DNA from: a virus
Lineage: Duplodnaviria > Heunggongvirae > Uroviricota > Caudoviricetes
Length of the DNA: 21,794 nt
Strand: one strand, 5' to 3'
Virus record (IMG/VR): IMGVR_UViG_2737471841_000006
Coordinates: 1 to 21,794 of that record
Position 1 is the first letter of the stretch, and each line of letters starts with the position of its first letter. Shown piece after piece: positions 6,306 to 9,543 of this stretch. The notes under the pieces were generated by a model. The model ran no database searches, was not told the DNA's origin, and saw only the letters and a list, made by a program, of their open reading frames with translations. The translations under genes were made by a program, and so were the position numbers.

Positions 6306-6744
6306 AATCATCTCCATTTTTTCAAATGAACTTTGTTGATGCGGTGCCTAGTGCCTCCAGGTGATGTTAACCAGTTAACAATTAACACCGGATACAAATA
6401 CCCCCCCAAACTAATATAGAGTTTTTTAACTGTTCCGCGTGCGCTTAGCCGCATTCACCGCATCACAAAATTCACTTTAAAAAGGGCGGACATCAGTCGA
6501 ACTTCAAGAAAAAACCGATGCCGCCAAAGACTACACACAGCAATGTCGTTATTCACAACCGGAGGCGCACTCCCACCATTTATATTTAACAGACAAGACC
6601 GACTCTTTATTGATACCGGAAATGCGCCTTCGTGTTGTGCCCGGTTTTATTTCACCACCTCCGGGCTTCGGTGGTCTCGGCTATACCCCTACAGCGAGAG
6701 CTTGTGTTAACATTTCAATACCCTTACAGTCGAGAGTTATTGAA

Positions 6745-7234
6745 ATGTTGGATGTATTTACTCCATTGTTGAAACTTTTTGCTAAAGAGCCACATCGAAA
6801 GACTTATGTACACGATTATCATTTTTGGCCTCACTCTCTGGCTGATACCGAAAGAGTTTGCTGTCGTATTTAATGCTTATACTGAAATAACCTGGCTCTT
6901 TCAGATTATAGTTTTTGCCTTTTCTTTCGTGGTTGCCATTTCCTTCTCAAGATTGCGAGCACATATTCAAAAACATTATTCATTGCTACCAGAGCAACGA
7001 GTATTGCTTCGTTTATCTGAGAAAGAAATCGCTGTATTTAAAGATTTCCTTAAAACAGGAAATCTTATTATCACTTCTCCTTGCCGTAACCCGGTTATGA
7101 AAAAATTAGAACGGAAGGGCATCATTCAACATCAGAGTGATGGCGCAAACTGTTCTTATTATCTCGTCACCGAAAAATACTCCCACTTTATGAAGTTATT
7201 CTGGAACAGTAGGAGCAGACGTTTTAATCGTTAG
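6745..7234 (+). pseudogene. sieB: Superinfection exclusion protein B (sieB), reading frame broken by an apparent 1-nt insertion near 6792-6796
   Basis: MLDVFTPLLKLFAKEP (frame of ATG 6745) switches frame and continues as ..IERLMYTIIIFGLTLWLIPKEF..SRSRRFNR in the 6779..7234 ORF. 16 + 1 + 145 residues gives 162 aa, the intact SieB length. First in-frame ATG after the shift is at 6806. Confidence 0.6.
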
Positions 7235-8468: not shown

Positions 8469-8597
8469 ATGTTTAAATCAGACGTAATTAATTATTACGG
8501 CACGAAAGCCAAAGTGGCGAAAGCTGCTGGCGTTGATCCATCTGCTGTTTCTCAATGGGGGGAAGCCGCAAACGATCGTCGGTTTCAAAATTGGTAA
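8469..8597 (+). pseudogene. ydaS: Cro-like HTH protein stub (YdaS-like), 42 aa; probably truncated at a deletion junction
   Basis: Hand translation gives MFKSDVINYYGTKAKVAKAAGVDPSAVSQWGEAANDRRFQNW then stop; not in the track (<60 aa). Good GGAGG Shine-Dalgarno. Only the HTH portion is present, a G6 run sits at 8557-8562, and a terminase frame takes over immediately. Confidence 0.5.
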
Positions 8598-9543
8598 TGC
8601 GCTGGTGGATGAACTGGACATTTTGCCGAAGGAAAAAGCCAGAACTGCGTGGCGCAAGATAATTGCGCGTATGCGTTATAAGGTTGATGGACTTCGCAAC
8701 GGTATTGACGTTACAACCACGCCAGAAGGATTCAAATTTGTCTACGAGCAGTTTGTTAAAGCCGTGCGTGAAAAAACAGAGTTGTCCTCACTGTATGGTC
8801 TGGTGCAGGCATCTACTTTCGATAATGAAAAGAACCTGCCAGCAGATTACATTCCTTCGCTTCTTGAATCATACCCTCCAGAGCTGATTAAAGCCTATCT
8901 TCGTGGACAGTTTACGAACCTGACAAGTGGTACTGTTTACCATCAGTTTGACCGGCAACTGAATAATTGCGAAGAAGTGGAGCAGCCTGGGGAGCCGATT
9001 TATATCGGGATGGATTTTAACGTTGGAAAGATGGCGGGGATCGTCCATGTGCTGCGTTTGGGTCTTCCATGTGCGGTAACTGAAATCATCAATGCCTACG
9101 ATACGCCGGATATGATCCGTATCATTAAAGAACGCTTCTGGCTGTATGACGGAAATGATTACCGGAAGGTGAGAGAAATTTATATTTATCCTGATGCCTC
9201 CGGGGATTCCCGAAAATCAAATAATGCAAGTGCGACGGATATTGCTCAGCTTAAACAGGCCGGTTTTAACGTTGTGGTGAACAGTTCGAACCCGCCAGTA
9301 AAAGATCGCGTTAACTCAATGAATGCAATGTTCTGCAATGCCAATGGCGAGCGTCGCTATAAAGTTAATGTGAAGCGTTGTCCGGTATATGCCGAATCTC
9401 TGGAGCAACAGGTCTGGGATGATAAGGGGGAGCCTGATAAAAAATCTGGCAACGATCACCCGAATGATGCAGGAGGTTATTTCATCGTTAAACAATTCCC
9501 TATTGTCAAACCGACCGGAAGAGTCACATCACTTCGGATTTAA
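8533..9543 (+). pseudogene. Terminase large subunit, N-terminally truncated fragment (Walker B-like segment plus complete nuclease domain; no Walker A)
   Basis: 336-aa frame with ALVDELD (Walker B-like) and nuclease-domain acidic motifs IYIGMDFNVG, IYPDASGD and GNDHPNDAGGY. No GxxxxGK(S/T) P-loop anywhere. Frame is open from 8488 with only a TTG at 8533. Sits directly after the cro-like stub, where replication and lysis genes would be expected. Confidence 0.6.

What the first reader, a model, noticed from the sequence alone, without database searches (positions are those of the whole stretch)
6686..6749. sieB start codon buried in a 12-bp perfect inverted repeat, preceded by a 16-bp direct repeat
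aacatttcaata (6709-6720) and tattgaaatgtt (6738-6749) form a 12-bp perfect inverted repeat with a 17-nt spacer; the right arm contains the sieB ATG (6745-6747). Two direct repeats CCCYTACAG(T)CGAGAG lie at 6686-6700 and 6721-6736, the second inside the loop. As RNA this would sequester the initiation codon; as DNA it could be a protein-binding site. Either way it suggests regulated expression of the exclusion gene.
Basis: seen in the sequence. Interest (0 to 1): 0.5.

Follow-up and report, generated by a model that had tools for sequence, protein, structure and literature searches.

The report
Antisense-RNA and promoter cassette at sieB
The inverted and direct repeats at the start of the prophage exclusion gene sieB are real and conserved, but they belong to a promoter-plus-antisense-RNA cassette already known from phage P22 (the sas RNA), not to a hairpin in the sieB messenger itself.

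Summary
The window is a Rac-type cryptic prophage of E. coli.

They sit in a ~130-nt non-coding block that is 64-70% identical to the regions upstream of sieB in P22 and lambda, while the SieB proteins are 27% identical or undetectably similar. In P22 this block holds the mapped sieB promoter and RNA start. Its complement is the antisense RNA sas, which blocks SieB translation but spares the in-frame Esc.

By homology, the window's -10 is TAACAT (6708-6713) and the RNA start is A6720. The left arm is therefore promoter DNA, absent from the sieB mRNA. The hairpin fits best as the 5' stem-loop of a sas-like minus-strand RNA (about 6749 to 6620). DR2 lies in its loop, and DR1 in the loop of a second hairpin.

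Arm pairing is kept by both-side changes in diverged loci. Three more helices also covary.

sieB here is frameshifted (extra A at 6794), but the Esc-equivalent ORF is intact.

Verdict: a new member of a known kind, of moderate interest.

The parts
6709..6720 (.). Left arm of the inverted repeat (AACATTTCAATA). It covers positions 2-6 of the predicted -10 hexamer, the discriminator and the predicted +1.
   Evidence: promoter geometry by homology with P22
6738..6749 (.). Right arm of the inverted repeat (TATTGAAATGTT). It contains the sieB ATG (6745-6747). Its outer end, 6749, equals ATG+4, the position of the 5' end of P22 sas.
6683..6700 (.). Direct repeat 1 (ATACCCCTACAGCGAGAG). It lies in the -35 region of the sieB promoter. 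On the minus-strand RNA its core forms the loop of hairpin C.
6718..6736 (.). Direct repeat 2 (ATACCCTTACAGTCGAGAG). From A6720 it forms the first nucleotides of the predicted sieB mRNA, including the Shine-Dalgarno-like GAGAG (6732-6736). On the minus-strand RNA it is the loop of hairpin 1.
6705..6713 (+). Predicted sieB promoter core: TG (6705-6706), one base, then the -10 hexamer TAACAT (6708-6713), which makes an extended -10. A T-A-n-n-n-T hexamer ends 7 nt before the A of DR2 in all 39 sequence types.
   Evidence: (P22 promoter and RNA start); not detected by the simple consensus scan
6720..6720 (+). Predicted sieB RNA start. It is homologous to the mapped P22 start, the A of the second ACCCCTACAG.
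   Evidence: an inference for Rac, not measured
6620..6749 (-). Predicted sas-like antisense RNA. It runs from the 5' hairpin 1 (the inverted repeat) through hairpin C to stems A and B. The ends are taken by homology with the 127-nt P22 sas reads, and the 3' end is approximate.
6675..6699 (-). Hairpin C: TCTC-G-GCT (6675-6682) pairs with AGC-GAGA (6693-6699). The core of DR1 is in the loop.
6654..6675 (-). Stem B: ACCACC (6654-6659) pairs with GGTGGT (6670-6675). It interleaves with stem A in the geometry of an H-type pseudoknot.
6639..6666 (-). Stem A: GCCCGG (6639-6644) pairs with CCGGGC (6661-6666).
6745..7234 (+). sieB, frameshifted by an extra A at 6794. The frame from ATG 6745 stops at 6873.
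6806..7234 (+). Intact 142-aa ORF starting at the conserved internal Met (Met21 of K-12 SieB), the equivalent of P22 Esc. It carries the full SieB Pfam domain.

Best explanation
The repeats are part of a conserved, bidirectional regulatory cassette that is homologous to the sieB promoter and sas region of phage P22.

On the plus strand the cassette holds the sieB promoter: the DR1 region around -35, the extended -10 TGnTAACAT at 6705-6713, and the RNA start at A6720, which is the A of DR2. It gives an mRNA with a 25-nt leader.

On the minus strand the same DNA, transcribed as part of the leftward early (pL-type) transcript or from a promoter of its own, gives a sas-like antisense RNA of about 130 nt. 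Its 5' end lies at about 6749. In that RNA the inverted repeat forms the 5'-terminal stem-loop. The 5' arm and the loop are complementary to the first 30 nt of the sieB mRNA (6720-6749), which include the Shine-Dalgarno-like GAGAG and the AUG. The 3' arm is the complement of the promoter's -10 and discriminator and has no partner in the mRNA. The complement of DR2 sits in the loop, where it can meet the free 5' end of the mRNA. The complement of DR1 sits in the loop of a second hairpin. Two interleaved helices (A and B) close the RNA.

Pairing of this RNA with the sieB mRNA would block initiation at AUG 6745 and leave the internal start at 6806 (the Esc equivalent) free. This is the translational switch described for P22.

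Shown here: homology of the block, conservation of the promoter geometry, covariation of the helices, and better folding on the minus strand.

Inferred: that Rac makes this RNA, where its ends lie, and the switch itself.
For: 1. The block at window 6630-6749 is 64% identical to P22 and 70% identical to lambda. The alignment scores are 8-11 sd above shuffles. The SieB proteins are only 27% identical (lambda) or not detectably similar (P22).

2. The curated P22 record places the sieB promoter and the sieB RNA start (the A of the second ACCCCTACAG) inside this block, and annotates Esc as an in-frame CDS from codon 25.

3. The sequenced P22 sas RNA (127 nt; PMC13397905, Table 2) maps to the minus strand from ATG+4 leftwards across the whole block and overlaps the mRNA by 36 nt.

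4. P22 sas and the Rac equivalent fold into the same architecture of hairpin 1, hairpin C and stem A.

5. A T-A-n-n-n-T hexamer ends 7 nt before DR2 in all 39 sequence types.

6. Arm covariation. In eight distinct Rac-type sequences, with the register fixed by the -10 hexamer and the ATG, 76 of 96 cells are Watson-Crick, against 26-38 of 96 in registers slid by 1-3. Both-side changes occur at six pairs. Across 25 families, own-partner duplexes beat permuted partners in all 20000 permutations.

7. Stems A, B and C pass the same test, with 0-5 of 20000 permutations as good. Their variants are fully compensated.

8. Hairpin 1 is more stable on the minus strand in 12 of 16 types (mean -12.0 against -9.1 kcal/mol). 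For the window, z is -5.4 on the minus strand and -3.2 on the plus strand.

9. Met21 is invariant, the Pfam SieB domain starts there, and the ORF from it is intact in the window.

10. Reviews describe sas as the antisense RNA that switches translation from SieB to Esc.
Against: - No transcript data for Rac were found. The RNA start, the existence of the antisense RNA and its ends are all transferred from P22.
- No sigma-70-like promoter was found on the minus strand inside the 5' part of sieB, so the origin of the 5' end is open: its own promoter, or processing of the leftward transcript.
- The 3' end has no U-tract terminator.
- Wobble-type substitutions do not settle the strand. In the Rac-type stem there are 4 G-U-compatible cells on each strand. 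In stems A, B and C about 9 events favour the minus strand and about 4 the plus strand (read).
- Some families have little or no hairpin 1: lambda, L206, L255, L246 and the Yersinia locus L010.
- K-12 itself carries a mismatch in the stem.
- Why the same 10-11 nt sequence is kept in two loops is not explained.
- The invariance of the direct repeats among the loci from the pattern scans is partly by construction.
- sieB is a pseudogene here, so the element may no longer act in this particular prophage.
Confidence: 0.62

Rival explanations
1. Fold-back inhibition of read-through transcripts on the plus strand, as in IS10 and IS50. Plus-strand RNAs that start upstream of the sieB promoter contain both arms and hide the AUG. 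Only transcripts that start at the promoter inside the hairpin would then be translated. This could operate alongside the antisense RNA.
For: The geometry is exactly right: the left arm lies over the -10 and discriminator, and the right arm over the AUG. The plus-strand hairpin is stable in the window (-14.3 kcal/mol, z = -2.75). Some families pair better on the plus strand: L012, L188 and L373. Own-partner complementarity is also significant on the plus strand. The comparison with IS10 rests on my own knowledge of Davis, Simons and Kleckner 1985.
Against: No plus-strand gene or promoter lies upstream, because kilR, ydaE, racC and recE all read the other way. The hairpin is weaker on the plus strand in 12 of 16 types. 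The inner helix needs G-U pairs that exist only on the minus strand.
Confidence: 0.17
2. One reading: the hairpin forms in the normal sieB mRNA and sequesters the initiation codon, acting as a translational operator.
For: The 12-bp stem contains the AUG. The plus-strand fold is -14.3 kcal/mol. The arms covary.
Against: By homology with the mapped P22 RNA start, and given the invariant position of the -10 hexamer, the mRNA starts at 6720 and lacks the left arm. The mRNA from 6720 has no unusual structure.
Confidence: 0.07
3. DNA-level sites. The palindrome or the two direct repeats, which flank the -10 about 35 bp apart, bind a protein (a repressor or activator of the sieB promoter).
For: The direct repeats lie at about -35 and at +1, typical places for regulators. 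Their core is nearly invariant across phages. No other strong copy exists in the window.
Against: The cassette is shared by phages with different immunity repressors (lambda, P22, Rac), so any such protein would have to be a host factor or a conserved unknown one. The arm sequences differ widely between families while their partners change with them, which is the signature of base pairing rather than of one recognition sequence. Each direct-repeat core falls in a hairpin loop of the minus-strand RNA.
Confidence: 0.08
4. Chance repeats with no function.
For: 15 of 300 shuffled windows contain a 12-bp perfect inverted repeat. Short two-copy direct repeats are often chance matches (note).
Against: The block is conserved at 64-70% identity where the adjacent proteins have diverged to 27% or less. 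Both-side changes keep the stem. The permutation tests give 0 of 20000.
Confidence: 0.02

Closest known systems
Phage P22 sieB / esc / sas (Ranade and Poteete 1993; P22 record BK000583; sas reads in PMC13397905)
   Same: The non-coding block is homologous (64% identity). It has the same order of elements: interleaved stems, a hairpin with ACCCCTACAG in its loop, the -10, ACCCCTACAG at +1, then the sieB ATG. There is an in-frame internal Met at the start of the SieB domain. The P22 antisense RNA starts at ATG+4, which corresponds to the outer end of the window's right arm.
   Different: The hairpin-1 stem uses different sequences: ATCGG/CCGAT plus ACUCU/AGAGU in P22, against a 12-bp AACAUUUCAAUA stem in the window. 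The leader is 25 nt rather than 31 nt. The SieB proteins are not detectably similar by BLASTP. Nothing has been measured for Rac. In this window SieB is frameshifted.
Phage lambda sieB upstream region
   Same: 70% identical block with both direct repeats, stems A, B and C, and TAAACT at the same distance from DR2. The start of the protein aligns with the Rac SieB N-terminus.
   Different: Hairpin 1 is weak in lambda (-6.6 kcal/mol, z = +0.7). The GenBank record starts sieB at an upstream TTG.
IS10 RNA-IN / RNA-OUT and fold-back inhibition (from my own knowledge, not tested here)
   Same: The promoter for the mRNA lies inside an inverted repeat. The antisense RNA is a stem-loop whose loop and 5' arm are complementary to the 5' end and start codon of the mRNA. 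Outside transcripts would fold back over the start codon.
   Different: There is no sequence relation. The gene is a phage exclusion gene, not a transposase. The outcome proposed here is a switch between two start codons rather than simple repression. The antisense RNA here carries extra 3' domains (hairpin C and stems A and B).
DicF and the dicB operon of prophage Qin
   Same: A small RNA lies in the non-coding stretch of a leftward prophage operon, upstream of a cell-division inhibitor. A DicF-like sequence sits 80 nt downstream of the block on the same strand, at 6484-6539.
   Different: DicF acts in trans on ftsZ and is unrelated in sequence to the block. It is a neighbour, not the same element.

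Membership tests
P22-type sieB promoter / sas antisense RNA cassette | Sequence homology of the non-coding block to the P22 sas region | tested here: met
   64% identity over 129 aligned columns, score 23 against a shuffle mean of -19.6 (sd 5.3). Multiple alignments.
P22-type sieB promoter / sas antisense RNA cassette | Lies immediately upstream of, and overlapping, the start codon of a SieB-family gene, antisense to the leftward early operon | tested here: met
   The SieB Pfam domain matches at E = 1.5e-31. The gene order kilR - block - sieB - ydaF - repressor is shown.
P22-type sieB promoter / sas antisense RNA cassette | -10 hexamer and RNA start at the P22 positions, with the start at the A of the second ACCCYTACAG | tested here: met
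   TAACAT at 6708-6713 ends 7 nt before A6720. The same geometry is seen in all 39 types. This concerns sequence position only; the start itself was not measured.
P22-type sieB promoter / sas antisense RNA cassette | A minus-strand RNA of about 105-127 nt is actually made | not testable with these tools
   Only the P22 reads are available. Searches of E. coli supplementary tables gave gene-level counts only.
P22-type sieB promoter / sas antisense RNA cassette | In-frame internal start giving an Esc-like product | tested here: met
   Met21 is invariant in five diverged homologues. The Pfam domain starts there. ORF 6806-7234 is intact and matches SieB at E = 6.7e-30. Translation from this codon was not tested.
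P22-type sieB promoter / sas antisense RNA cassette | The antisense RNA blocks SieB synthesis but not Esc synthesis | not testable with these tools
   This needs translational fusions or protein assays.
Start-codon-sequestering hairpin in the mRNA (translational operator) | Both arms lie within the mature mRNA | tested here: not met
   The left arm 6709-6720 overlaps the predicted -10 and ends at the predicted +1. This rests on homology, not on a measured 5' end.
Intrinsic terminator | G+C-rich stem followed by a T run | tested here: not met
   The scan finds no terminator at 6600-6760 on either strand. The inverted-repeat arms are A+T-rich, and no T run follows on either strand.
Any Rfam family | Match to a curated covariance model | tested here: not met
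   No match over the block at E up to 1 in the window, lambda or P22.

The most novel reading that the evidence does not exclude
The block is a widespread, portable and highly structured promoter-plus-antisense-RNA module, a 'sas family' absent from Rfam. It has four covarying helices, including an H-type pseudoknot at the 3' end, and two hairpin loops that display the same 10-11 nt sequence, which is complementary to the 5' end of the mRNA it controls. It stands in front of at least three unrelated families of prophage accessory genes (SieB-like, phrog_1244 and an 80-aa family) in lambda, P22, K-12 Rac and many other lambdoid prophages. The twin loops would be a specific device, either a double kissing site or a protein-recognition motif, and not just a leftover of duplication.
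Probability: 0.35. Interest if true: 0.6.

Novelty: new member of a known kind. Interest (0 to 1): 0.42.

Why it matters
It identifies, in the best-studied bacterium (the Rac prophage of E. coli K-12 and its relatives) and in lambda, the counterpart of an antisense RNA switch that has been studied only in P22 and has no Rfam model. It gives a testable structure for that RNA: a 5' hairpin that presents the anti-5'-end sequence, a second hairpin with the same loop sequence, and interleaved 3' helices. It also shows that the same cassette drives other, uncharacterised prophage genes. For annotation, the repeats at sieB should be read as a promoter plus an antisense RNA gene, not as an mRNA operator. 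The sieB allele in this window is probably SieB-minus and Esc-plus.

Tried and rejected
- The Rfam scans of the window, lambda and P22 gave nothing over the block.
- tblastn of Rac SieB against the phage collection found only three Rac-like phages. The genome, viral and metagenome protein scans returned almost only identical Rac copies. Diversity came instead from four diverged proteins, a blastn search with the lambda block and two DNA pattern scans. Those pattern scans were filtered with an nhmmer profile because most raw matches were chance hits.
- MAFFT alignment A4 puts the Rac-type 3' halves of stems A and C out of register, so I did not use the count of structure pairs on it. I counted pairs with fixed anchors and ran permutation tests in scripts instead.
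- The attempt to decide the strand from G-U against C-A substitutions was inconclusive.
- The simple sigma-70 scan found neither the sieB promoter, which has a poor -35, nor a minus-strand promoter for the antisense RNA.
- The two Ranade and Poteete 1993 papers and a review of cis-antisense RNAs are not held. What I say about them beyond the cited reviews and the P22 annotation comes from memory.
- Supplementary tables of three E. coli transcriptome papers gave no start or end positions for sieB.
- I rejected a terminator reading because there is no T run. I rejected a nut/boxA reading because there is no resemblance.

Full report
**Where we are.** The window is a Rac-type cryptic prophage of E. 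coli. A 1-kb query around the finding matches E. coli chromosomes at 93-99.7% identity, under genes annotated kilR, sieB and ydaF. The K-12 and SA31-1 records give the order recE, racC, ydaE, kilR (all leftward), sieB (rightward), ydaF, then the repressor. This matches the ORFs in the window.

**The observation.**
- The inverted repeat 6709-6720 / 6738-6749 is 12/12 complementary with a 17-nt spacer (I4).
- It is the only perfect inverted repeat of that size in the window. 15 of 300 dinucleotide-preserving shuffles contain one, so alone it is only mildly unusual.
- The two direct repeats are as described and extend 3 nt further left, to 6683-6700 and 6718-6736.
- ATG 6745 is the annotated sieB start. 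The first 26 residues are conserved even in a 34%-identical homologue.
- One correction: sieB here has an extra A at 6794 relative to K-12. The frame from ATG 6745 therefore ends at 6873, and the closest genome annotates the gene as frameshifted.

**What the region is.** Diverged sieB loci fetched through their proteins keep the direct-repeat cores and a pairing between the left-arm and right-arm positions. They also keep a block of about 130 nt upstream of the ATG.

The same block is present upstream of sieB in lambda and P22. The window is 70% identical to lambda and 64% identical to P22 over this block, with alignment scores 8-11 standard deviations above shuffles. The proteins are much less alike: Rac SieB is 27% identical to lambda SieB and not detectably similar to P22 SieB by BLASTP. 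A non-coding stretch that is better conserved than the gene beside it is under its own selection.

**The P22 record explains the block.** The curated record BK000583 annotates three things inside it:
- the sieB promoter;
- the sieB RNA start, at the A of the second ACCCCTACAG;
- Esc, an in-frame CDS starting at codon 25 of sieB.

A recent small-RNA sequencing study lists the known P22 antisense RNA sas as a 127-nt minus-strand RNA (PMC13397905, Table 2). Its sequence maps from ATG+4 leftwards over the whole block and overlaps the mRNA by 36 nt. Reviews describe sas as the antisense RNA that switches translation between the two products of sieB (PMC12197685, PMC7067206). Rfam has no model for it.

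**Transfer to the window.** About 40 distinct versions of the block were collected by two DNA pattern scans filtered with an nhmmer profile. In all 39 versions with an assignable start codon, a T-A-n-n-n-T hexamer ends 7 nt before the A of the second repeat.

In the window this hexamer is TAACAT (6708-6713), preceded by TG at 6705-6706, which makes an extended -10. The predicted RNA start is A6720. The consequences are:
- The left arm of the inverted repeat (6709-6720) is the -10 and discriminator of the sieB promoter, and it is not part of the sieB mRNA.
- DR2 forms the first nucleotides of the mRNA. DR1 lies in the -35 region.
- The mRNA from 6720 folds no better than shuffled sequence (z = -0.04).
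- These points rest on homology. No Rac transcript ends were found in the literature I could reach.

**Is the pairing selected?** In eight distinct Rac-type sequences I fixed the register by the -10 hexamer and the ATG.
- 76 of 96 cells are Watson-Crick, against 26-38 of 96 when the register is slid by 1-3 nt.
- Six of the twelve pairs show changes on both sides, for example A-T to G-C, C-G to T-A and T-A to A-T.
- Across 25 families, the duplex between a family's own -10 region and its own start-codon region is stronger than with permuted partners. None of 20000 permutations reached the observed mean, on either strand.
- The hairpin is not universal. It is weak in lambda, the Yersinia locus and a few others. 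K-12 has one mismatch.

**Which strand?**
- Wobble-type cells are balanced in the Rac-type stem, 4 per strand.
- The whole hairpin is more stable on the minus strand in 12 of 16 types (mean -12.0 against -9.1 kcal/mol). For the window, z is -5.4 on the minus strand and -3.2 on the plus strand.
- The reason is that the GGGG of the DR2 complement pairs with CUCU, the complement of the Shine-Dalgarno-like GAGAG. That pairing needs G-U pairs, which are possible only on the minus strand.
- P22 sas and the Rac equivalent fold into the same three-part architecture.
- The outer end of the window's right arm, 6749, is ATG+4, the position of the P22 sas 5' end.
- No plus-strand gene lies upstream that could supply transcripts containing both arms.

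**The rest of the block.** Three further helices are supported.
- Stem C (TCTC-G-GCT / AGC-GAGA, 6675-6699) encloses the core of DR1.
- Stems A (GCCCGG / CCGGGC) and B (ACCACC / GGTGGT) interleave in the order B5', A5', B3', A3' on the minus strand. This is the geometry of an H-type pseudoknot with an A-rich third loop.
- All three have fully compensated variants. For stem A: GCCTG/CAGGC and GCCGG/CCGGC. For stem B: CCCTC/GAGGG, TCACG/CGTGA and CGGGA/TCCCG. For stem C: CTTGTT/AACAAG, TTTTG/CAAAA and TTCTCT/AGAGAA.
- All three pass the partner-permutation test, with 0-5 of 20000 permutations as good.
- Stems A and B are somewhat more stable on the minus strand, and stem C on the plus strand.
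- Whether A and B form together or are alternatives was not tested.

**Mechanism proposed.** The minus-strand RNA, about 6749 to 6620, carries the inverted repeat as its 5' stem-loop. Its 5' arm and loop are complementary to the first 30 nt of the sieB mRNA, which include GAGAG and the AUG. Its 3' arm has no partner in the mRNA.

The loop presents the complement of the mRNA's 5' end. This is the arrangement known from IS10 RNA-OUT and RNA-IN (from my own knowledge). Pairing would block initiation at 6745 and leave the internal AUG at 6806 free, as reported for P22 SieB and Esc.

The same inverted repeat would also fold back over the AUG in any plus-strand read-through transcript. That is a possible second role and my main rival explanation.

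Two points remain open: why the same 10-11 nt is kept in two loops, and how the 5' end of the antisense RNA is made. No minus-strand promoter was found.

**Caveats.** The invariance of the direct repeats among the loci from the pattern scans is partly by construction. One diverged SieB locus, L143, lacks both repeats but keeps TGnTAGCAT and a GCATTT/AAATGC pairing with the start codon. The boundaries of P22 sas come from small-RNA reads and differ from the 105 nt quoted in a review.

**Verdict.** The element is the Rac member of the P22 sieB promoter and sas family: a new member of a known kind, of moderate interest.

Noticed in passing
window 6794 (extra A); 6745-6873; 6806-7234: The sieB frameshift lies between the SieB start codon and the conserved internal Met (the Esc equivalent). 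Full-length SieB is lost, but the 142-aa ORF with the complete SieB Pfam domain is intact, so this would be a SieB-minus, Esc-plus allele. The same extra A occurs in SA31-1 (L002) and in L135. L135 carries the K-12-type arm (GATATG), so the insertion is seen on two backgrounds.
   Followed up: partly
window 6484-6539 (-) and 6332-6472 (-): There is a DicF-like sequence (44.9 bits, gathering score 48, E = 7e-8) and an STnc100-like sequence (39.6 bits, gathering score 47). Both lie on the minus strand between the block and kilR. The leftward operon therefore seems to carry a string of small-RNA-like elements upstream of the cell-division inhibitor, as dicF does upstream of dicB in prophage Qin.
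   Followed up: no
loci L258, L181, L198, L206, L238, L286, L188, L246, L255 (phrog_1244) and L149, L177 (80-aa ORF): The same promoter and antisense block stands in front of genes that are not sieB. One is a family of about 160 aa with a coiled-coil region and CxxC...CxxC motifs (phrog_1244, unknown function). Another is an unannotated family of about 80 aa. The block behaves as a portable cassette for prophage accessory genes.
   Followed up: partly
window 6639-6675 and the homologous positions in all loci: Stems A and B interleave in the geometry of an H-type pseudoknot, with an A-rich loop of 6-9 nt. Both covary. No U-tract follows, so the 3' end of the antisense RNA may be protected by this fold rather than by a terminator hairpin.
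   Followed up: partly
locus L320 (IMGVR_UViG_2778261452_000004): The block is nearly identical to the window's up to ATGTT, with the perfect GAAATG arm. The coding sequence then switches to a different SieB subfamily (MLESLLTLAKFF...). A recombination junction therefore lies right at the end of the right arm.
   Followed up: no
locus L147 (lambda) 683-700: The lambda RefSeq record starts sieB at a TTG (34482). The start that is homologous to Rac, and conserved at the protein level (MDPLVILGRVFSNEPLERTMY), is the ATG 15 nt downstream. An in-frame ATG also lies 3 nt after the TTG.
   Followed up: no
window 8533-9543 (+): A terminase large-subunit ORF that lacks the first ~86 positions of the N-terminal Pfam domain follows directly after the repressor/cro-like region. 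The prophage therefore carries a large internal deletion or rearrangement joining the immunity region to a packaging gene.
   Followed up: no
loci L036, L017, L019 and others (E. coli Rac variants): Within E. coli, the dominant K-12-type allele has a T-T mismatch in the middle of the 12-bp stem (GATATG). The perfect stem (GAAATG) is the minority form: the window, L002, L128, L131 and L320.
   Followed up: no
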